From Escherichia coli (GTDB taxonomy: Bacteria > Pseudomonadota > Gammaproteobacteria > Enterobacterales > Enterobacteriaceae): a stretch of 64,000 nucleotides of DNA. This document shows, piece after piece, positions 3,392-56,448 of this stretch. Each line of letters begins with the position of its first letter. Position 1 is the first letter of the stretch. Position numbers and translations under genes: made by a program. Where the stretch lies: the NCBI RefSeq assembly GCF_965641715.1, contig NZ_OZ282453.1. One strand, given 5' to 3'. The notes beneath the pieces are model-generated. The model saw only the letters and a list, made by a program, of their open reading frames with translations. It was not told where the DNA came from and did not search any database.

Positions 3392-4621
3392 TTATGCTGG
3401 CCAATCCCACTGCTGATAGGCAGAGAATAGGCGCGTGAGCTCAGCAGGCGCAAGAATATCAACAATATTAGCTCTGTAGCTATGCGATTTACCTAATGGA
3501 ACATTTTCGAAATGATTAGCTTGATAAGGATTAAAATCGTGAAGCTCACCTAATGTTGAGATATCGGTATTAATAGTTTTAAGCCAAGAAACAAGAATTA
3601 CTTTTGCCCCTGTTCTCTGTATGTAAGCTCTTGCCGATTCAAAACTATAGCCTCGAGTTGTTATATCATCTATAAGAAGTACTGTTTTACCAGGGCCTAA
3701 AGGTGGTTTTTTATAGGTAGTTCTAGGATTTCTGTGTGGCTGAGAATTAAGACAAATTGTATTAAGTTGATTGCAATGGTCAATTGCAACTCCCTCATTT
3801 CTTGCTTTTTGAGATTTTTTGGAAGTCGTATGCCTTAAAATAAGATCTGGGATATACGTCTTGCGAAAACATTTTCCAAATATTGAAATCGCTTCATCCA
3901 TGATATTATTCCCATATCCTTGCTTATGCCCTGGATAAACACTAACATAATTAATCATCTTATGAATGCCACTAAAATAGAGACTGGATATTAAGGCACT
4001 CGTCCAAAATTCAGGATGGCCTAATCCATGTTTAGCAGCAGCACGAGCATCTTCAGAGTAAAGAGTATACTCTTCCTTCATGGTGCTGAAAGGAGCAAGT
4101 GCATAGAAATTAAAATCACCATCGTGAATTTCATGACACCAAAGATGCTCTCTTAAACAGAAGGTATCTATAAATCTAGCAATATCTTTAGGGGTTGAAA
4201 ACTCGAAACCATAATCTGTTTTGTCTGCCCACCATGTAGCTCTTAAAAAGAGCAACTCACCATTAACTGCTGTTTGCATGTCGTTTATCGAAGCACCAAT
4301 GTACAAAGTTTCTGTACTTTCCCAACCCATCAAATCAAGGACATATTTTGTAGCATCCGCAGTTGGCTTCCCTGGAATGCTCTTATCTTTCGCTCGACAA
4401 AGATATTTAAATTCTCCCCAATGCTTTTGTAACACATCCTCTAAAGGGGTTCTTTCATCTCCGACAACCCAACCCCTGTTAGTGAATACAACAAACTCGA
4501 TCTTTTTAGTTCTGAAATATCTAATTAATTTATCTACCTCTGCAAAGATTTCGCTATCGATCTTTCCCTTAGGCACAAGAATATCTTCAACACTAAGAAT
4601 CACACCCTTAATTTTGCTCAT
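3392..4621 (-). CDS. satellite cargo: protein with N-terminal Rossmann-like (possibly degenerate HAD-like) domain and C-terminal type I phosphoribosyltransferase domain; ShosT-like candidate
   Basis: PRTase signature VLLIDDITTRG near C-terminus; N-terminal YIGASINDMQTAVNG resembles HAD motif IV; AT-rich; 10-nt gap to upstream gene. Confidence 0.55.
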   Translation of the reverse strand: MSKIKGVILSVEDILVPKGKIDSEIFAEVDKLIRYFRTKKIEFVVFTNRGWVVGDERTPLEDVLQKHWGEFKYLCRAKDKSIPGKPTADATKYVLDLMGWESTETLYIGASINDMQTAVNGELLFLRATWWADKTDYGFEFSTPKDIARFIDTFCLREHLWCHEIHDGDFNFYALAPFSTMKEEYTLYSEDARAAAKHGLGHPEFWTSALISSLYFSGIHKMINYVSVYPGHKQGYGNNIMDEAISIFGKCFRKTYIPDLILRHTTSKKSQKARNEGVAIDHCNQLNTICLNSQPHRNPRTTYKKPPLGPGKTVLLIDDITTRGYSFESARAYIQRTGAKVILVSWLKTINTDISTLGELHDFNPYQANHFENVPLGKSHSYRANIVDILAPAELTRLFSAYQQWDWPA

Positions 4622-4631
4622 TTCATCTTCC

Positions 4632-5696
4632 TTAGAGATCTAAGCTCTGCTGTATCGGCTGTGCTTTTAAATCATGATTATTATTCAAAATATAATTACT
4701 CATCTCATTCAATTCAAAAGGCATTAAAAAAGATAAAGAATTTCTATTTTCTTCAGCAAACTTCAATTCTGGTCTACTTTCATACGTAGTAGGAAGATAT
4801 GGACTCGCTATCTTTTTTGCATACTTAAAAGCATAATCAACAGTATGTGATGTTCCACTTTTAATATTCCATTCGACTGGTATTAGTGAATCACATAAAG
4901 CAGCCTGGATTCTGTTACGCCTTACAAAATTTTCTGCGCTATATGTTTGTTCAGGTAGATACTCGGTAACGATAGCCCCACCATTAGAAACTATTGCTCG
5001 ATATAACTCTTTAGAACCTTTCGGATACTCGACAAAAATCCCATTACCCAATACCGCAATAGTTGGAATGCCATATCTCAGCGATTCATAATGACAACAT
5101 TGATCTATTCCTGTCGCCAAACCACTGACTGTTGAAACATCTTTAGAATATAGAGAAGAAACAATCAGTTTTACTAGAAAAATACCATCATCCGTTGGCT
5201 TTCGTGTCCCCACAATTGCAACAGATTTCTTATTAAGAAGTTCATAATTACCATGAACAAAAATCCAAAATGGCGGATCGCTTATGTTCTTTAATGATTG
5301 AGGAAATGTAGCCTGATCATAAAAGGTGAGCACAATACCATTTTTATTGAGTTCACGAGCTCTCTCCAGTCCCTTAGACCAAAGGTCTTGTTGAAATGTT
5401 TCCCAAGATATATTTTTAGGCAAGGAAACTCTTAGATATCCTGCCAAGGCATCAGCTGTATTATCTTTTAATATATTCTTAAATCCAATTTTGGATTGAT
5501 AGATTTTGCGAAGCGTCCAGTAACCAACCCCCTTTAGACAAGTTAAGGCAAGAAACGCAATAATTTCATTTTTCCAAAACTCTCTAACTTCAGTGTAATC
5601 TTTATATTCCATTTTACGTTTGCCTTTTAGATTACAACCCGTACTCAACACAAAAAATTTAGAAAATTGTTGCCAAAAGCATATTATAAATAGCAT
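4632..5696 (-). CDS. satellite cargo: DprA/Smf-like (SLOG-type Rossmann) protein; ShosA-like candidate; probable start at MEYKDY (5612)
   Basis: DprA core motifs VAIVGTRKPT, GLATGID, TIAVLGNGI, YPKGSKELYRAI, FVRRNRIQAAL; AT-rich. Confidence 0.55.
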   Translation of the reverse strand: MLFIICFWQQFSKFFVLSTGCNLKGKRKMEYKDYTEVREFWKNEIIAFLALTCLKGVGYWTLRKIYQSKIGFKNILKDNTADALAGYLRVSLPKNISWETFQQDLWSKGLERARELNKNGIVLTFYDQATFPQSLKNISDPPFWIFVHGNYELLNKKSVAIVGTRKPTDDGIFLVKLIVSSLYSKDVSTVSGLATGIDQCCHYESLRYGIPTIAVLGNGIFVEYPKGSKELYRAIVSNGGAIVTEYLPEQTYSAENFVRRNRIQAALCDSLIPVEWNIKSGTSHTVDYAFKYAKKIASPYLPTTYESRPELKFAEENRNSLSFLMPFELNEMSNYILNNNHDLKAQPIQQSLDL

Positions 5697-14820: not shown

Positions 14821-14838
14821 ATGGTGCCGATAATAGGA
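14821..14838. repeat. attL core: 18 bp at thrW 3' end, repeated at 3194..3211
   Basis: exact 18-mer match. Confidence 0.6.
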
Positions 14839-14897
14839 GTCGAACCTACGACCTTCGCATTACGAATGCGCTGCTCTACCAACTGAGCTATATCGGC
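14822..14897 (-). tRNA. thrW: tRNA-Thr (anticodon CGU)
   Basis: reverse complement reads GCCGATATAGCTCAGTTGGTAGAGCAGCGCATTCGTAATGCGAAGGTCGTAGGTTCGACTCCTATTATCGGCACCA. Confidence 0.9.
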
Positions 14898-36539: not shown

Positions 36540-37052
36540 TCATTGTGATATTTCCATCTCTGTGATTAATACCGGATAAGCATTTAATTGCAGAGTTTGC
36601 ACGAAATTATCGCAGATAACTGGCAATAACAATAACCCATCAGCCCGCTGCTGTAATACCTCCATTCGTTCTACTGATTCAACATTAACAACCAAACCAA
36701 GGGCATTTAGCGATTTAAGGATCTCCAGATGTTCACTCATCCAGCGCAGAGAAAAAGGATCATCACCAATTATAAAAACAGGCCCCCAGCCGGTTAATAA
36801 CTGGCGTTTCATTACGGAACCAGGATGAAGTCGAGTACATATTACAGGAAATACCCCCTGTTGCGATGGTTCCGATGATGTGGATAATTCAGAAATATTT
36901 TCCATTGTTAGTGAAGAATTAACATGCATTAATAATGGTGAAACAACCTCACTTTCCTTGCTAGTAATGGCTGCACTAATCTGAAAGGAAAATAACAATA
37001 TTATTACGTATAAACTCATTTTTAACATAACACATTCAATCCGTTTATTCAT
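36540..37052 (-). CDS. hypothetical secreted protein (signal peptide), unknown function
   Basis: hydrophobic N-terminus LYVIILLFSFQISAA; AT-rich; between ISAs1 fragments. Confidence 0.4.
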   Translation of the reverse strand: MNKRIECVMLKMSLYVIILLFSFQISAAITSKESEVVSPLLMHVNSSLTMENISELSTSSEPSQQGVFPVICTRLHPGSVMKRQLLTGWGPVFIIGDDPFSLRWMSEHLEILKSLNALGLVVNVESVERMEVLQQRADGLLLLPVICDNFVQTLQLNAYPVLITEMEISQ

Positions 37053-37118
37053 GTTATAGAATAATGATGCTATAAATCATCATTAATGTTCAATTATTTA
37101 ATCACACAATTTAAAAAA

Positions 37119-37622
37119 TCATTGACCAATGTGAATTGGCAATGTACCACTCAAGTTAAAATCACTGAATATTTTATCAATTTCTCTTGCAGTTTCTATA
37201 TATTTAACCTCTTTCGTACTTGCATTATAAATAGCCCAAGCCTCGGGATGGGATGTTCCACCAAACCTTACAAAAAAACTTGATTTCATATTATTATATA
37301 AATTAACATCAGGAAAAGGATCTTCTCCAAAATTAGTAGTATTGAATAATGAAAGTTCGTATCGCTTAGAAAATTCTGTTGGTAGGATAGCTTCACTGCC
37401 ATCAATAGCATTCATCCAGAGTTTGTTACCATTATATTCCAACAATAATCTCTGTTTTGCATGTGTCTTATCTCGTTCTTTAACGACAGCGAATACCTTT
37501 TTAACAACTTGCTGTGCGGATGGTCCTATTGTATTACCAAAAGCTGGCAACCCGATTTTGCCATAAACACTCTCCTGAATGAAATAAATATCCGTTTTAT
37601 CGGCCTCGACAATATCTACCAT
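37119..37622 (-). CDS. hypothetical protein, unknown function (possible orphan immunity protein)
   Basis: AT-rich 167-aa ORF between ISAs1 fragments. Confidence 0.35.
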   Translation of the reverse strand: MVDIVEADKTDIYFIQESVYGKIGLPAFGNTIGPSAQQVVKKVFAVVKERDKTHAKQRLLLEYNGNKLWMNAIDGSEAILPTEFSKRYELSLFNTTNFGEDPFPDVNLYNNMKSSFFVRFGGTSHPEAWAIYNASTKEVKYIETAREIDKIFSDFNLSGTLPIHIGQ

Positions 37623-43010: not shown

Positions 43011-43082
43011 TTTCCGGCTCTTAAGAAATATTTACGCACATGCACCAGCATTACAGAAAATAAAACCTGCGATACATTTTAA

Positions 43083-43859
43083 TCAATAAGGTTGCTTTAC
43101 CAAGCTTCCATCGATATTGATGGAAAATTCATTAGACCTAATATGAACAGAATGTTGCTCATCATCTTTATCTAATATTTGATTAACAAAAAAAAACGTA
43201 TTTTTATCAAATTCATAATTATCACATCCCTCTCCACTAAATGATATAGCTCTAAAATCATATTCATTACATGAGTATCTTTTCATCAAAATAGAGAGGA
43301 ATGTTTCATTAATTGATTTTAATACAAACCATTTTCTCCTAACAAGTTTGTAGTTTAATGTTTTTATATGATAATTATTTAAACTGGGGAGAAATGAATG
43401 CATATCATTCAATTTTACATCAAAAGATATTTTTTTACCTGCCGTAATTTCCACCCATCGGCTCAAATTCAAATCAAGCTCAAAGGGACAAAAGCCTCCT
43501 AGATAGTCTAAGCTAATATTTCCTGATGTAATCAAGAATTCGTCATCACACAAAGCATCAAATACATCTCCATTTCCTTTTTGGAAGTTCTTTGGATAAT
43601 ATATTCTGGGGAGAAAATACGATTTAGTACTACTGTTATAAAAAGTTATAGTAGCTAAAATATTTTCAGCATGTGGCTTAACCACCAATTTAACAACAAC
43701 ATCATTTGTTAATTCATTACTTATATTTTCCTCTGGCGCTAAATTATGGCTAAGATAAATAATTGGTTTCCCATTGTCACTTCTTCGTTCAAAACCGAAT
43801 CTGTATTTTTTTACAAAAAGATTCTCATTATCTATTGCAATTGCAATAGATAATGGCAA
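43083..43859 (-). CDS. hypothetical protein, candidate immunity for upstream HExxH effector
   Basis: AT-rich 258-aa ORF directly downstream of putative effector; no signal peptide seen. Confidence 0.35.
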   Translation of the reverse strand: MPLSIAIAIDNENLFVKKYRFGFERRSDNGKPIIYLSHNLAPEENISNELTNDVVVKLVVKPHAENILATITFYNSSTKSYFLPRIYYPKNFQKGNGDVFDALCDDEFLITSGNISLDYLGGFCPFELDLNLSRWVEITAGKKISFDVKLNDMHSFLPSLNNYHIKTLNYKLVRRKWFVLKSINETFLSILMKRYSCNEYDFRAISFSGEGCDNYEFDKNTFFFVNQILDKDDEQHSVHIRSNEFSINIDGSLVKQPY

Positions 43860-43924
43860 AAAACAAAGAAAAAAAAACCATCAGTACAACATAATTTAGA
43901 TTATAGAAAGCCAACCTCTTCATC

Positions 43925-44728
43925 TTATTTCCCCGTCAACTCATCAAAACATTTTTCTATCTCTTTTATTTTATCCTCTACTTTTTTTGCTAACATATTC
44001 TCATCTTGAGCTTCAATATCTTCATCATTTAATTTTATATAAAAATATCTTTCAACATTATATGCATTCTCAAATAACTGATCTTTACGCAATGTAACCA
44101 GATCATTAGCCACTGAAACATGTTTCTCATAGCTAACTTCATCCTTATTACTTGTTGCGAACTTATTAATACCCGTATAATCCTGAGTCCACATACCACC
44201 TTTTTGATTGTCACCCCAATACCAAAATATATGGGACATTTCATGGCAAAGTGTACTTACATGAGAGTCTCTACCTGTAACCGACTGTTTTATACCATGT
44301 CTGTATTCAAAATGCGCTCCGATATTTACAATGTAAGGAGGATCAAGATGTGGACTAATAAAAGCAGCAAATTCATTGCAGTTCGTATAATCTTTATAGC
44401 TTTCGATCGTCAAACCATTTGCAATCGTCATTATTCGTCTGATGCCATCCATTATGAATAGTCTCGCTTGCATTCGTTTCCCAGTATCTTCCCCAACTTT
44501 TCTGATTTTTATAATGTCCTCGCCTTTAAGGCCAAAAACTTTAATAAAATCTCGTTGTTGTTCCCCCTCCCATGACATAATATCATCTGCTCTTTTCAAT
44601 AAAACCATTTTCTGTGCTTTACAAGCCTTACTCATCATTATTTTAAATTTATTTGTAATTTTTTGCGGTACTACACATACTTGCGACTCGGGTTGTGAAG
44701 TCCCACTAGTATTATTATTCCCTGCCAT
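43925..44728 (-). CDS. putative zincin-like (HExxH) metallopeptidase toxin, T6SS effector candidate
   Basis: HEMSH motif (LCHEMSHIFWYWG); start MAGNNNTSG overlaps vgrG stop; AT-rich; ORF track extension to 45103 is spurious. Confidence 0.45.
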   Translation of the reverse strand: MAGNNNTSGTSQPESQVCVVPQKITNKFKIMMSKACKAQKMVLLKRADDIMSWEGEQQRDFIKVFGLKGEDIIKIRKVGEDTGKRMQARLFIMDGIRRIMTIANGLTIESYKDYTNCNEFAAFISPHLDPPYIVNIGAHFEYRHGIKQSVTGRDSHVSTLCHEMSHIFWYWGDNQKGGMWTQDYTGINKFATSNKDEVSYEKHVSVANDLVTLRKDQLFENAYNVERYFYIKLNDEDIEAQDENMLAKKVEDKIKEIEKCFDELTGK

Positions 44729-52995: not shown

Positions 52996-53169
52996 AATGA
53001 CCTCCCTGATTTATTCACGGACCAAATGATTCTCACCATGCAGCAAAGGGTGCCAGTGCAGCGTTACACTCATCTTTACATTTTCAGGTACGCTACCGCC
53101 CGGGTTTCCGGCATCCGCCATCTCCCTCATGAAAGCGTAACTCCTTACTGACACTCATTTTTTACACGT

Positions 53170-53204
53170 ACAAAAACAACATCCTGCACGAAGGCAGGAT
53201 GTTG
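53170..53204 (-). terminator. Rho-independent terminator downstream of hcp
   Basis: stem caacatcctgc/gcaggatgttg followed by UUUUUG on minus-strand transcript. Confidence 0.6.
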
Positions 53205-53215
53205 TTGACTCAGAT

Positions 53216-53734
53216 TTATGCTTCCAGCGGTGCACGCCAGTCATCGGCACCAGAAGTACCGGATTTGATGTGCTCCCACTCAACCTTACGGTATGCCAGT
53301 GATACTGCGAGCAATTGCGTAAACTCACGCTGTGCAGGGTCCTGGCAGTGCGGCATGTGCAGGTTCATGTCCACAATCGTCGCGTCAGTAAGACGTGTGG
53401 TGAAGTAGTGCTCCTGCTTGCCTTCAACTGAAGTACGCCACCAGTGCAGCTCCACTTTCGGCAGCATTTCACCGGAGGCCAGCGCGTTGTACAGCAGCGG
53501 AACGGCTTTGTTCAGCGCCACGGTGAAAATGAACGGTTTGTGCGCGCGCTGCCCGGAAGGTTGACCAGACTGTGGATCGGTTGGAACAGTAACGTTATGC
53601 AGAAACTCCTGCACCAGCATTTCATCTTCGTGTCCCTGCACGTAGATATTGCCGACAGAATCTGCGGTGAAAGCACCGGCAGTGATGTTCCCCTGGGTCT
53701 GACCTGTAATTGAAATGTAACATGGGGTTGGCAT
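53216..53734 (-). CDS. hcp: T6SS tube protein Hcp (TssD)
   Basis: 172 aa MPTPCYISITGQTQGNITAG; good RBS. Confidence 0.9.
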   Translation of the reverse strand: MPTPCYISITGQTQGNITAGAFTADSVGNIYVQGHEDEMLVQEFLHNVTVPTDPQSGQPSGQRAHKPFIFTVALNKAVPLLYNALASGEMLPKVELHWWRTSVEGKQEHYFTTRLTDATIVDMNLHMPHCQDPAQREFTQLLAVSLAYRKVEWEHIKSGTSGADDWRAPLEA

Positions 53735-54437
53735 TTATGAACTCCTTGTGAAATTATCAACTGCTGTTTTACGAACAACCCGTCGTTAATCCCCGACGGG
53801 TTAGAGTGTGATGCGGCTCACATCAGGAACCACACCCTTTTCTTTATTCGAGTTACAGGCACACGTAATTAGCACCTACTGAAAAACTCTTTTATGGTGT
53901 TTAAATATATTTTTAGTCAATTTCAGAACACGGTCACATAAGCTAAAAATATATCAACTTCAACAGCAGAATTATCCATAACGTATCTTCCCCCCCCATA
54001 AAAATCCACAGCCGCGTCAAAAACAAATTATTACGACACTTACTCCGCCATCGTTCCAGCACGCAATTAAGACATTCCTTAAAGGAATTTCTTATGATGT
54101 ATTGCCAGCAATTAATTAATTGATAAAACCATACATAAAACTTATTAATCAATTTAATAAATGCATATAAATCAATATATTATGGTATTTTATTAACCGT
54201 AAAATCATATTCATCAAGTCTATAAATACCAAAATTTATTTCACTATAATATATTAGCAAGGAAGAATACATCTCTTTCTAAAATATAAATAGTTCTTTT
54301 AATATTTTATTTCATGAGTAGAATACTGATCACAACAGAAGGAAGGTTACATTATCTAACTGCCACTGAAACGGTATCTTCGGTATTTTTATGCAGTACG
54401 AAAATGCTGTGCTCATGGCCTGAACGGGAACATTTTT

Positions 54438-54941
54438 ATGAGCAAAATGAACAACAATGGCGGCAGTGTCGCGCCGAAAGAAAGAATCAGCGTTCGGTAT
54501 ACACCAAAAGTTGATGGGGTGGCTGCTGATATCGAATTGCCGCTGAATTTATTGATCACCGGCAATCTGAAAGGGAAACCAGATAACACGCCGTTGGACG
54601 AGCGAACTGCCATTGCTATCAACCGCTATAACCTCAACGCAGTCATTTCAGAAGCTGACATTGAACGGGAGTTTGTTGTTCCGGCTGAACTCAGTGACGC
54701 TCCCAATGAGCAAATGTACGTCAACCTGAAAGTCAAATCTATGGATGACCTTTCTCCGGACCATATTGCCAGCCAGGTACCAGAAATAAAACGTCTTCTC
54801 GAATTGCGTGAAGCTCTGGTCGCACTTAAGTCTCCACTAGGCAATATTCCGGCCTTCCGCGCACAACTTCAGGCGCTACTGGAAAACGAAGACAGCCGCG
54901 AGCAGCTGATCCATGAACTGGGTATCGCCGTTCAGAAATAA
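54438..54941 (+). CDS. tssB: T6SS sheath small subunit TssB
   Basis: 167 aa, first gene of structural operon. Confidence 0.85.
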   Translation: MSKMNNNGGSVAPKERISVRYTPKVDGVAADIELPLNLLITGNLKGKPDNTPLDERTAIAINRYNLNAVISEADIEREFVVPAELSDAPNEQMYVNLKVKSMDDLSPDHIASQVPEIKRLLELREALVALKSPLGNIPAFRAQLQALLENEDSREQLIHELGIAVQK

Positions 54942-54963
54942 TTTTCACAGAAGGATTTTCAGT

Positions 54964-56448
54964 ATGTCAGTAAAGGAAGATATTGCTCCCGTCAGCGCGT
55001 CGCAAACCGCCGCGCCCCCATCTCTGCTTGATGAAATCATGGCGCAAACCCGCGTCCAGCCTAAATCAGAAAGCTACGATATCACCCGCCAGGGCGTGAG
55101 CGCCTTTATTGCCGCCATGTTACAGGGCGACAGTAGCGCTGAACCTATCAATATCCTGGCCGTTGACGCCATGATTGCTGATATTGATGCCCGAACCAGC
55201 AGGCAGATGGATGCCATTATTCATGCCCCGGAGTTTCAGGAACTGGAATCCCTGCTGCGCTCGCTGAAGCTGCTGGTTGAACGCGCGGATACACGGGAAA
55301 ACATCAAGGTCCATTTCCTGAATGTCACTCAGGAAGAACTGCTGGATGATTTCGAATTTGCACCTGAAATCACGCAGTCTGCATATTACAAGCATGTATA
55401 TTCAAGCGGTTACGGACAATTTGGCGGTGAGCCAGTGGCGGCGGTAATCGGCAACTTTGCCTTTAAGAACACCACGCCGGATATGAAGTTGCTGAAATAT
55501 ATCAGCCAGGTCAGTGCGATGGCGCACAGCCCGTTCCTCTCATCAGTATCATCCGAATTTTTCGGTCTGGACTCATGGACAGAGTTACCGGGGATTAAAG
55601 AACCAGGAGCCATCTTTGAAGGCCCGGCCTATTCCCGCTGGCGTGCCTTGCGTGAATCAGAAGATTCACGCTACCTGGGGCTGACCGCCCCCCGGTTCCT
55701 GCTGCGTCACCCTTACTCGCCGGATGAGAACCCAGCCAGGACCTTCCGTTACCATGAAGACGTCAGCCAGAGTCACGAGTCTTATTTGTGGGGGAACACC
55801 TCGTTTTTACTAGCTGCGAACCTGGCTGAAAGTTTTGCTAAATATCGCTGGTGTCCCAATATCATTGGCCCTTCCAGCGGCGGCGCAGTCAAAGACCTCC
55901 CGGTGCATCTGTATGAATCCATGGGGCAAATGCAGGCAAAAATTCCGACTGAAGTGTTGATCACTGACCGGAGAGAGTATGAGCTGGCGGAAGAAGGCTT
56001 TATCACACTGACCATGCGTAAAGGGTCTGATAATGCGTGCTTTTTCTCGGCCAACTCGGTGCAGAAACCCAAAACATTCCCCAAAACCCCCGAAGGCAAG
56101 GCTGCGGAGACCAACTATAAACTCGGCACCCAGCTACCATACTTATTTGTTATCAGTAGGTTAGCGCATTACATCAAGGTAATTCAGCGCGAACAGCTTG
56201 GCTCATGGAAAGAACGCAGTGACCTGGAGCGCGAGCTGAACACCTGGATTCGCCAGTATGTGGCCGACCAGGAGAATCCGCCTGCCGAAGTCCGCAGCCA
56301 CCGGCCATTACGTCAGGCGAAGATCGAGGTACTTGATGTGGATGGTGAGCCAGGCTGGTACCAGGTCGCGATTTCTGTCAGACCGCATTTTAAATACATG
56401 GGTGCCAGTTTCGACCTGAGCTTGGTCGGACGACTGGATAAGGAATAA
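54964..56448 (+). CDS. tssC: T6SS sheath large subunit TssC
   Basis: 494 aa from MSVKEDIAPV. Confidence 0.9.
   Translation: MSVKEDIAPVSASQTAAPPSLLDEIMAQTRVQPKSESYDITRQGVSAFIAAMLQGDSSAEPINILAVDAMIADIDARTSRQMDAIIHAPEFQELESLLRSLKLLVERADTRENIKVHFLNVTQEELLDDFEFAPEITQSAYYKHVYSSGYGQFGGEPVAAVIGNFAFKNTTPDMKLLKYISQVSAMAHSPFLSSVSSEFFGLDSWTELPGIKEPGAIFEGPAYSRWRALRESEDSRYLGLTAPRFLLRHPYSPDENPARTFRYHEDVSQSHESYLWGNTSFLLAANLAESFAKYRWCPNIIGPSSGGAVKDLPVHLYESMGQMQAKIPTEVLITDRREYELAEEGFITLTMRKGSDNACFFSANSVQKPKTFPKTPEGKAAETNYKLGTQLPYLFVISRLAHYIKVIQREQLGSWKERSDLERELNTWIRQYVADQENPPAEVRSHRPLRQAKIEVLDVDGEPGWYQVAISVRPHFKYMGASFDLSLVGRLDKE

What the first reader, a model, noticed from the sequence alone, without database searches (positions are those of the whole stretch)
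53735..54437. Very AT-rich ~700 bp divergent control region between hcp and tssB
The structural operon (tssB onward) and the hcp-vgrG array diverge from this interval, which is far more AT-rich than the flanking genes, the typical look of an H-NS-silenced horizontally acquired promoter region. I did not identify a convincing Fur or other named operator.
Basis: inference. Interest (0 to 1): 0.3.

Follow-up and report, generated by a model that had tools for sequence, protein, structure and literature searches.

The report
T6SS-2 hcp–tssB divergent control region
This AT-rich 703-bp gap is the already-studied two-way promoter region of the E. coli type VI secretion system 2, silenced by H-NS in close relatives, so the finding is real but ordinary.

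Summary
Positions 53735-54437 are exactly the gap between hcp (minus strand) and tssB (plus strand). The gap has 32.9% GC against 49.2% for the window and 54-56% for its flanks, and it holds the window's lowest 200-bp GC (17%).

The window is an E. coli chromosome. The cluster is the aspV-linked T6SS-2 of APEC, NMEC and UTI89, and published primers for the APEC hcp2B promoter map inside the region. Published work on that orthologue shows three things: deleting hns raises expression of both operons, iron and Fur have no effect, and CpxR-P binds the hcp2B promoter. The sister EHEC and Shigella sonnei regions are described as H-NS-repressed bidirectional promoters.

The region has three parts. 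About 115 bp next to hcp and about 150 bp next to tssB are conserved in sequence. The roughly 430-bp centre keeps only its AT-richness, across at least 14 genera.

Two details look new. One is a covariation-supported RNA hairpin in the hcp leader that shows a GGA, with the ribosome-binding site in a CsrA-like context; CsrA binding is untested. The other is a perfect CRP core palindrome. No Fur box or sigma-54 promoter was found.

The parts
53735..54437 (.). Whole hcp-tssB intergenic control region (703 bp, 32.9% GC)
   Evidence: ORF map, composition, RefSeq annotation of a 99.9%-identical genome.
53216..53734 (-). hcp, called hcp2B in APEC; first gene of the leftward hcp-vgrG-effector array
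   Evidence: The protein WP_001142963.1 is identical in all window-type alleles examined.
54438..54941 (+). tssB (vipA2); first gene of the rightward structural operon tssBCEFG-tagH-tssJKL-tssH-vasI-tssA-tssM-vasL-hcp
53721..53944 (-). Equivalent of the published APEC Phcp2B fragment, which was active in a lacZ fusion and shifted by CpxR-P
   Evidence: The primers of PMC6534853 map here with 0-2 mismatches. This is a published experiment on an allele about 92% identical, not on this strain.
53921..53944 (-). Zone holding the published CpxR box, which is absent from the non-shifting control probe. The window allele reads GTGAC where APEC and UTI89 read GTAAT
   Evidence: The control probe maps to 53721-53920 and the full-length primer matches with 2 mismatches. 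Allele alignment.
53777..53802 (-). Conserved RNA hairpin in the hcp leader. In hcp sense it reads AACCCGUCG-GGGAUUAA-CGACGGGUU, with GGA at 53790-53792 in the loop
   Evidence: MFE fold. Pair counts over 11 sequences from 7 genera: 93.3% of cells paired against 33-54% for slid controls, 6 of 9 pairs changed on both sides, and 0 of 500 shuffles reached the covariation score. G.U pairs make it valid only in the hcp-sense RNA.
53742..53751 (-). hcp ribosome-binding site in the context CACAAGGAG. AAGGAG is invariant and the ACAAGGAG context is kept in 9 of 11 sequences. Its GGA lies 47 nt downstream of the loop GGA
   Evidence: Alignment A4. The resemblance to the CsrA SELEX consensus is my own knowledge; binding is inferred, not shown.
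53807..53822 (.). Perfect CRP core palindrome TGTGA-N6-TCACA
   Evidence: It is the only match with 1 or fewer mismatches in the 64-kb window. It is kept as AGTGA-N6-TCACA in Pseudocitrobacter and lost in the O157 type. Function is untested.
53986..54285 (.). Variable, extremely AT-rich core; candidate H-NS nucleation and spreading platform
   Evidence: 28% GC here, falling to 20% at 54071-54310. Identity to UTI89 is 86% here against 96-99% in the ends. Identity to O157, Pseudocitrobacter and E. albertii is 47-55%, while their GC stays at 25-28%. The H-NS role is inferred from published genetics.
54263..54324 (+). tssB-proximal conserved promoter-like blocks: AGAATACnnCTCT (54263-54275), ATAAAnAGTnCTTyT (54286-54300) and a -10-like TAGAAT (54319-54324). 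A lone GATC follows at 54328-54331
   Evidence: Cross-genus alignments. The zone where a -35 would sit does not resemble TTGACA. The transcription start is not known.
54362..54419 (+). Conserved stem-loop in the tssB leader: outer GCCA/UGGC, inner ACGGYAU/AUGCYGU, ending in the highly conserved block TCATGGCC
   Evidence: RNAalifold on 8 sequences gives 14 pairs, 3 of them with changes on both sides, and a covariation term of only -0.05. Support is weak.
53990..53997 (.). C8 homopolymer whose length varies among otherwise near-identical alleles (C5 to C8)

Best explanation
This is the bidirectional control region of the E. coli T6SS-2 cluster inserted at aspV, the type found in APEC, NMEC RS218 and UTI89. 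It drives the hcp2B-vgrG-effector array leftwards and the tssB (vipA2) structural operon rightwards. It has three parts. Next to each gene lies a sequence-conserved module holding a promoter and a structured 5' leader. Between them lies a spacer of roughly 430 bp that keeps its extreme AT content and its length but not its sequence. The most likely mechanism is that H-NS nucleates on the AT-rich spacer, spreads or bridges over both promoter modules, and keeps both operons silent in rich medium. Expression then needs counter-silencing signals; CpxR-P at the hcp promoter and host serum have been shown in APEC. Post-transcriptional control through the conserved leaders probably adds a further layer. 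What is shown here: the composition, the three-part conservation, the leader hairpin and the orthology to the published fragments. What comes from published experiments on orthologues: hns dependence, Fur independence and CpxR binding. What is inferred: that H-NS binds the central spacer of this allele, where the promoters sit, and what the leaders do.
For: The composition and coordinates are confirmed. Gene order and annotation identify a T6SS-2 cluster beside thrW, proA and proB, that is, at the aspV locus. The APEC Phcp2B primers map to 53721-53944. Deleting hns raises clpV2, hcp2A and hcp2B, while iron and Fur have no effect (PMC5874247). CpxR-P binds Phcp2B (PMC6534853). The sister EHEC region is H-NS-repressed and behaves as a bidirectional promoter (PMC13141884 and PMC5363993), and the same layout is described in S. 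sonnei. Both ends are conserved while the centre keeps only its composition. A long AT-rich hcp-tssB gap of 594-1180 bp, with GC 15-20 points below the adjacent genes, recurs in Pseudocitrobacter, Citrobacter, Superficieibacter, E. albertii, Yokenella, Atlantibacter, Rahnella, Xenorhabdus, Photorhabdus, Morganella, Limnobaculum and Pragia. Aggregatibacter has a 558-bp AT-rich gap, about 11 points below its genes. Near-matches to the H-NS motif TCGATAAATT are about five times denser here than in the window as a whole, 5 of 86 hits in 1.1% of the sequence.
Against: I have no direct H-NS binding data for this allele or, from papers I could read, for any orthologue; the published evidence is qPCR in hns mutants. 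Motif enrichment is what any AT-rich DNA would give, and no exact high-affinity site is present. Predicted curvature is unremarkable overall. In EHEC, deleting hns alone gives little protein, so H-NS is not the only brake. The published CpxR box is altered in this allele. Promoter positions are not mapped: the sigma-70 scan finds no more sites than shuffles do (6 against 4.0 +/- 2.5).
Confidence: 0.75

Rival explanations
1. The AT-rich centre is a passive spacer kept by mutation bias or by a need to space the promoters. Control is exerted mainly by specific factors at the conserved ends (CRP, CpxR, an unknown activator of the tssB promoter) and by post-transcriptional regulators acting on the leaders. 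Under this reading, the H-NS effects seen in mutants are indirect.
For: Only the ends are conserved in sequence. A perfect CRP core lies at 53807-53822. CpxR-P binding has been published. The -10 and upstream blocks of tssB are conserved. The hcp leader hairpin shows covariation. Deleting hns in EHEC gives mRNA but little protein. hns mutants are pleiotropic.
Against: Extreme AT content and length are retained across many genera even though the sequence turns over, which argues for selection on composition. hns deletion affects both divergent operons in two related clusters. H-NS silencing of AT-rich T6SS promoters is established in Salmonella SPI-6 (Brunet 2015, cited).
Confidence: 0.15
2. 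An iron and methylation switch like the EAEC sci1 (T6SS-1) promoter, in which Fur boxes overlap Dam GATC sites at the tssB promoter.
For: One GATC (54328-54331) lies just downstream of the -10-like TAGAAT.
Against: No Fur box with 3 or fewer mismatches occurs in the window. The best match in the gap has 7 of 19 mismatches, and 280 of 300 shuffles do as well. There is only one GATC and it is not conserved in the O157 type or Pseudocitrobacter. Iron and Fur do not regulate this cluster in APEC.
Confidence: 0.02
3. A sigma-54 (VasH-type) promoter drives hcp, as in the Vibrio cholerae cluster that shares this gene order.
For: The gene order tssBCEFG-tagH-tssJKL-clpV-vasI-tssA-tssM-vasL matches the V. 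cholerae large cluster (the comparison is my own knowledge).
Against: The best match to TGGCAC-N5-TTGCW has 4 of 11 mismatches, worse than the median shuffle. No vasH-like activator gene lies between tssH and vasI.
Confidence: 0.02
4. The gap hides an unannotated gene, either a small protein or a small RNA.
For: Two ORFs of 66 and 69 aa lie in or overlap the gap. Promoter-like hexamers occur in the core.
Against: The 69-aa ORF is broken in other window-type alleles. The 66-aa ORF is absent from the O157 type and Pseudocitrobacter, has no ribosome-binding site and overlaps tssB out of frame. There is no Rfam match with E below 0.5. The only terminator-like site found in the scan lies in the tssB coding sequence, not in the gap. 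The core is not conserved in sequence.
Confidence: 0.05

Closest known systems
APEC T6SS2 hcp2B / vipA2 divergent promoter region (Ma et al. 2018, PMC5874247; Yi et al. 2019, PMC6534853)
   Same: This is the orthologous locus. The published primers map to 53721-53944. The UTI89-type allele is about 92% identical over the whole gap. It has the same flanking hcp (identical protein) and tssB.
   Different: The window carries a different allele, with 86% identity in the core. It differs at two bases inside the 24-bp zone that holds the CpxR box (GTGAC instead of GTAAT). It has a C8 tract rather than C5, and a different effector module downstream of vgrG (DUF4123 rather than DUF2169).
EHEC EDL933 't6sP' hcp3-tssB bidirectional promoter and the S. 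sonnei T6SS regulatory region (PMC13141884, PMC5363993, PMC10924462)
   Same: The same aspV-linked T6SS-2 layout. The gap is nearly the same length (696 against 703 bp) and GC (33%). The ends are homologous, including the hcp leader hairpin, the tssB -10 and the leader block TCATGGCC. A homologous terminator hairpin follows hcp.
   Different: It is a sister lineage: TssB is 55% identical and tssC 71% at the nucleotide level. The core cannot be aligned (47% identity). The CRP core and the 15-bp palindrome are absent, and there is a 12-nt insertion before the tssB ribosome-binding site.
H-NS silencing of the Salmonella SPI-6 T6SS (Brunet et al. 2015, cited)
   Same: An AT-rich T6SS promoter region silenced by H-NS in an enterobacterium. 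This is the same proposed mode of action.
   Different: It is a different T6SS subtype with a different gene order and no sequence homology. I did not examine SPI-6 here.
EAEC sci1 (T6SS-1) Fur/Dam epigenetic switch (Brunet et al. 2011, cited)
   Same: A promoter immediately upstream of tssB in an E. coli T6SS cluster.
   Different: There are no Fur boxes and no paired GATC sites. Fur independence has been shown for the orthologue.
CsrA/RsmA-controlled T6SS leaders (P. aeruginosa RsmA; Y. pseudotuberculosis T6SS4, PMC12503267)
   Same: The hcp leader offers a GGA in a hairpin loop and a second GGA in the ribosome-binding site, 47 nt apart. This is the classic two-site layout for a CsrA dimer (my own knowledge). 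CsrA is reported to repress hcp3 and tssC in EHEC (Wang et al. 2017, as cited).
   Different: No binding or translational data exist for this leader. One of 10 distinct sequences (Citrobacter sp. wls619) lacks the loop GGA.

Membership tests
E. coli T6SS-2 bidirectional (hcp-tssB) promoter region | Lies between a divergently oriented hcp and tssB at the head of a T6SS-2 cluster (tssBCEFG-tagH-tssJKL-clpV-vasI-tssA-tssM-vasL) in the aspV region | tested here: met
   ORFs, RefSeq annotation of a 99.9%-identical genome, and thrW with a proA/proB-side context in the window.
E. coli T6SS-2 bidirectional (hcp-tssB) promoter region | Sequence homology to the experimentally used APEC Phcp2B fragment and to EHEC t6sP | tested here: met
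   APEC primers match with 0-2 mismatches. The ends align to O157 at 65-67% identity and the core does not align.
H-NS-silenced (xenogeneic-silencing) regulatory region | AT content far above that of the surrounding genome | tested here: met
   32.9% GC against 49.2%. The window's minimum of 17% GC lies here.
H-NS-silenced (xenogeneic-silencing) regulatory region | De-repression of the flanking genes when hns is deleted | not testable with these tools
   Published for the APEC orthologue and the EHEC sister cluster, but not for this strain.
H-NS-silenced (xenogeneic-silencing) regulatory region | Physical H-NS occupancy, or a high-affinity nucleation site | tested here: inconclusive
   There are five matches with 2 mismatches to TCGATAAATT and none exact. 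The roughly fivefold enrichment over the window is expected from composition alone. No ChIP or footprint data were accessible.
Fur/Dam switch (EAEC sci1 type) | Fur boxes overlapping GATC sites at the promoter | tested here: not met
   plus published Fur independence.
Sigma-54/VasH-dependent hcp promoter | A -24/-12 element (TGGCAC-N5-TTGCW) and a cluster-encoded enhancer-binding protein | tested here: not met
   The best match has 4 of 11 mismatches and all 300 shuffles do as well. No vasH is present.
CsrA-repressed mRNA leader | At least two GGA motifs 10-63 nt apart, one in a hairpin loop and one overlapping the ribosome-binding site | tested here: met
   The hairpin is supported by covariation. 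The loop GGA is present in 9 of 10 distinct sequences. AAGGAG is invariant and the ACAAGGAG context is kept in 9 of 11 sequences. The spacing is 47 nt.
CsrA-repressed mRNA leader | CsrA binding and CsrA-dependent translation or stability | not testable with these tools
   The only support is a second-hand report that CsrA represses hcp3 in EHEC.
CRP-regulated promoter | A TGTGA-N6-TCACA site at a standard distance (-41.5, -61.5 and so on) from a mapped start site | tested here: inconclusive
   The core is perfect and unique in the window. No start site is mapped, the site is not conserved in the O157 type, and the full 22-mer score is not above chance.
CpxR-activated promoter | A GTAAA-N4-8-GTAAA box in the zone shown to be needed for the CpxR-P shift | tested here: inconclusive
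   The zone maps to 53921-53944. The window allele differs from APEC at two bases. The best CpxR consensus match anywhere in the gap is no better than chance.

The most novel reading that the evidence does not exclude
The conserved hairpin in the hcp leader (53777-53802, hcp sense) is a high-affinity CsrA site that works together with the CsrA-like ribosome-binding site (CACAAGGAG). Tube-protein synthesis would then be gated after transcription by the Csr system, independently of H-NS. This would explain why relieving H-NS in EHEC raises hcp mRNA but gives little Hcp protein. The conserved tssB leader stem-loop may be a second element of the same kind.
Probability: 0.3. Interest if true: 0.45.

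Novelty: already known. Interest (0 to 1): 0.2.

Why it matters
T6SS-2 is the most common type VI system in E. coli, yet it is silent in the laboratory and its activating signal is still unknown. That is the main obstacle to studying it in EHEC, Shigella and ExPEC. The region itself is known. The useful contribution here is a map of what is conserved: two short end modules, and a centre that keeps only its composition. That map, plus a covariation-supported leader hairpin, points experiments at specific bases rather than at the whole 700 bp. It also suggests that post-transcriptional control should be tested alongside H-NS.

Tried and rejected
- **Rfam:** a scan of 53000-55200 at E up to 1 gave only chance-level microRNA and thermometer hits.
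- **Promoter and terminator scan:** promoter-like sites were no more frequent than in shuffles, and there was no terminator in the gap.
- **Regulator and sigma-factor consensus scans:** I scanned for Fur, CpxR, RcsB, PhoP, FNR, ArcA, OmpR, Lrp, SlyA, NarL, OxyR, Fis, sigma-54, sigma-E, sigma-28 and sigma-S against block shuffles. None beat chance. A perfect IHF consensus at 54170-54182 was matched by 40 of 300 shuffles. All consensus sequences were recalled from memory.
- **Small ORFs in the gap:** rejected as genes.
- **hcp leader model:** a covariance model of the hcp leader found no hairpin in Rahnella, Xenorhabdus, Photorhabdus, Morganella and others. The hairpin is therefore limited to the Escherichia, Citrobacter, Yokenella and Atlantibacter group.
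- **Candidate sigma-70 hcp promoter:** TTGACT (53915-53920), an 18-nt spacer, then CATAAA. I considered it but do not assert it, because the -10 lacks the final T and the block is poorly conserved across genera.
- **CRP placement:** a class II CRP promoter facing tssB (-10 TTTATT at 53843-53848) fits the spacing by inspection of the sequence, but nothing else supports it.
- **Papers not held:** Kim et al. 2022 (start sites of the EHEC divergent promoter) and Journet and Cascales 2016 could not be read.

Full report
**Observation.**
The interval 53735-54437 is exactly the gap between a minus-strand hcp ORF (53216-53734) and a plus-strand tssB ORF (54438-54941). It is 703 bp long with 32.9% GC. 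The window as a whole is 49.2% GC, hcp-vgrG is 56.3% and the structural genes to the right are 54.6%. Only 2.1% of 703-bp windows in the 64 kb are as AT-rich, and the lowest 200-bp GC of the whole window (17%, starting at 54110) lies here.

The AT-richness is uneven. The first 116 bp next to hcp are 45% GC. A 240-bp core (54071-54310) is 20% GC, and the 127 bp next to tssB are 39% GC. A wedge-model curvature profile, with parameters recalled from memory, shows nothing exceptional for the region as a whole. It has one local peak above the 99th percentile near 53912.

**Identity of the locus.**
The window is an E. coli chromosome. A 1-kb query centred on the gap matches 552 of 5,426 complete E. 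coli genomes at 90% identity or more. All matches are chromosomal and nearly all are single-copy (557 places in 552 genomes).

In a 99.9%-identical genome the flanks are annotated in two directions. Leftwards the order is Hcp, VgrG, DUF4123 and effector genes. Rightwards it is tssB-tssC-tssE-tssF-tssG-tagH-tssJ-tssK-tssL-tssH-vasI-tssA-tssM-vasL-hcp. The window also carries thrW (tRNA-Thr CGT) at 14822-14897. ORFs of the sizes and order expected for proA, proB and phoE follow it, which places the island at the aspV locus.

UTI89 carries the same gap at 91.7% identity near position 263 kb. This is the cluster that the APEC and NMEC literature calls T6SS2.

A sister lineage of the same layout is present in about 2,290 further genomes, including O157:H7. 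Its tssC is 71% identical at the nucleotide level and its TssB 55% identical. It has a 696-bp gap with the same GC content.

**What is already published on this region.**
The primers used by Yi et al. 2019 for the APEC hcp2B promoter (lacZ fusion and EMSA) map to window 53721-53944 with 0-2 mismatches. Their control probe, which CpxR-P no longer shifts, maps to 53721-53920. The CpxR box therefore lies in 53921-53944.

Ma et al. 2018 showed in APEC XM that deleting hns raises clpV2, hcp2A and hcp2B. Iron limitation and Fur had no effect, and 50% duck serum induced both divergent units.

For the sister cluster, Wan et al. 2017 showed strong de-repression in an EHEC hns mutant. Vazquez-Lopez et al. 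2026 treat the hcp3-tssB gap as a bidirectional promoter, 't6sP'. They found that deleting hns raises mRNA but gives little protein, and that no single medium activates either promoter. Leung et al. 2024 found the same low activity for the S. sonnei version.

The literature on the orthologue agrees with all three.

**Anatomy from comparison.**
Within E. coli window-type alleles, identity to UTI89 is 99% at 53735-53850, 96% at 53851-53985, 86% at 53986-54285 and 97% at 54286-54437. Hcp is identical in protein throughout.

Against the O157 type, Pseudocitrobacter and E. albertii, only the two ends remain alignable, at 56-73% identity. The centre falls to 45-55%, yet its GC content stays at 25-31%.

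I scanned one genome per species with a TssB profile and then located hcp by tblastn. The arrangement of divergent hcp, a long AT-rich gap, then tssB recurs widely. The gaps are 594-1180 bp with GC 0.24-0.37, against 0.41-0.52 in the adjacent genes. This was seen in Pseudocitrobacter, Citrobacter, Superficieibacter, E. albertii, Yokenella, Atlantibacter, Rahnella, Xenorhabdus, Photorhabdus, Morganella, Limnobaculum and Pragia. Aggregatibacter has a 558-bp gap with GC 0.25 against 0.36 in its genes.

So the composition and length of the centre are maintained while its sequence turns over. That is what a composition-reading silencer such as H-NS would select for. It also shows that the AT-richness is an old, built-in feature of this T6SS subtype rather than only a trace of recent import.

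**The hcp-proximal module.**
In hcp sense the leader holds a 9-bp-stem hairpin, AACCCGUCG-GGGAUUAA-CGACGGGUU (window 53777-53802). Across 11 sequences from 7 genera, 93.3% of pair cells are standard pairs, against 33-54% when the partner is slid by 1-3 columns. Six of nine pairs show changes on both sides, and no shuffle out of 500 reaches the observed covariation score.

Fifteen of 89 cells are G.U pairs, which would be mismatches on the other strand. The helix is therefore an RNA feature of the hcp transcript, not a DNA palindrome.

The loop shows GGA, mostly as GGAU, in 9 of 10 distinct sequences. The ribosome-binding site AAGGAG is invariant and sits in the context ACAAGGAG in 9 of 11 sequences, 47 nt downstream. 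To my knowledge this matches the two-site layout that CsrA dimers bind. Vazquez-Lopez et al. cite a report that CsrA represses hcp3 and tssC in EHEC. CsrA control of this leader is therefore plausible but untested. A covariance model of the leader does not find the hairpin in the more distant genera.

Just upstream lies a perfect CRP core, TGTGA-N6-TCACA, at 53807-53822. It is the only match with 1 or fewer mismatches in the window. It is kept in Pseudocitrobacter but lost in the O157 type. Its role and orientation cannot be set without a mapped start site.

In the window allele, the 24-bp zone holding the published CpxR box differs from APEC at two bases.

**The tssB-proximal module.**
Eleven sequences share three elements: a -10-like GTA(A/G)AAT (TAGAAT at 54319-54324), a block ATAAAnAGTnCTTyT where a -35 would sit, which does not resemble TTGACA, and a block AGAATACnnCTCT about 55 bp upstream of the -10. 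This pattern suggests an activator-dependent promoter, but no known consensus fits.

The leader downstream folds into a conserved stem-loop at 54362-54419, with an outer GCCA/UGGC helix and an inner ACGGYAU/AUGCYGU helix. Covariation support is only modest. It ends in the highly conserved block TCATGGCC.

**Alternatives examined.**
- **Fur:** no Fur box occurs. There is none with 3 or fewer mismatches in the window, and the best in the gap has 7 of 19 mismatches.
- **Dam:** there is only one GATC in the gap.
- **Sigma-54:** no sigma-54 element is present and the cluster has no vasH.
- **Known RNA families:** there is no Rfam family match.
- **Hidden genes:** the two small ORFs in or overlapping the gap are not conserved outside near-identical alleles.
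- **H-NS motif:** near-matches are about fivefold enriched, but that follows from composition.

**Verdict.**
The finding is real and correctly interpreted, but it describes a region already characterised in close relatives. The novelty rating is 'already known' and interest is low.

Three things here go beyond the literature I could read:
- the three-part conservation map;
- the covariation-supported hcp leader hairpin with CsrA-like features;
- the perfect CRP core.

These are leads, not results.

Noticed in passing
window 53990-53997: A C8 homopolymer is the only insertion or deletion site among alleles that are at least 99% identical. It is C8 in the window and ET350, C7 in ES5 and FDAARGOS_944, C6 in A16 and GN04592, and C5 in UTI89 and 21AR0173. 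It could be a hypermutable tract or homopolymer assembly noise. No promoter hexamers obviously flank it.
   Followed up: partly
window about 53170-53207 (minus strand), in the hcp-vgrG spacer 52996-53215: A hairpin with a 13-14-bp stem followed by a T-run sits right after the hcp stop codon. O157 shows compensatory changes in the stem. It is the homologue of the terminator and mRNA-stabilising 'region I' of the EHEC h3R element (PMC13141884). The tool's terminator scan missed it.
   Followed up: partly
L005 (E. coli SCU-176) 4001-4855, equivalent to window about 53876: An IS1 element is inserted inside this gap, 142 bp from hcp. The cluster is rearranged and vgrG is truncated. This is an example of natural inactivation of the control region.
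   Followed up: no
window 54074-54088: A perfect 15-bp palindrome, ATTCCTT-A-AAGGAAT, lies at the edge of the AT-rich core. It is kept in all window-type alleles. Only the left arm remains in the O157 type, and it is absent in Pseudocitrobacter. No known operator was matched.
   Followed up: partly
window 53921-53944: Within the zone that holds the published CpxR box, this allele reads GTGAC where APEC and UTI89 read GTAAT. CpxR responsiveness may therefore differ between lineages.
   Followed up: partly
window 36865-37471 and 43016-44186: Other stretches with GC below 30% lie in the effector and immunity part of the island, downstream of the vgrG genes. They are also likely H-NS targets but were not examined.
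   Followed up: no
window 54391-54423: A 10-codon upstream ORF (ATG CAG TAC GAA AAT GCT GTG CTC ATG GCC TGA) overlaps the conserved tssB leader block. In the O157 type the frame stays open from a TTG, but most changes alter the amino acid. This reading comes from inspecting the alignment. It is probably not a leader peptide.
   Followed up: partly
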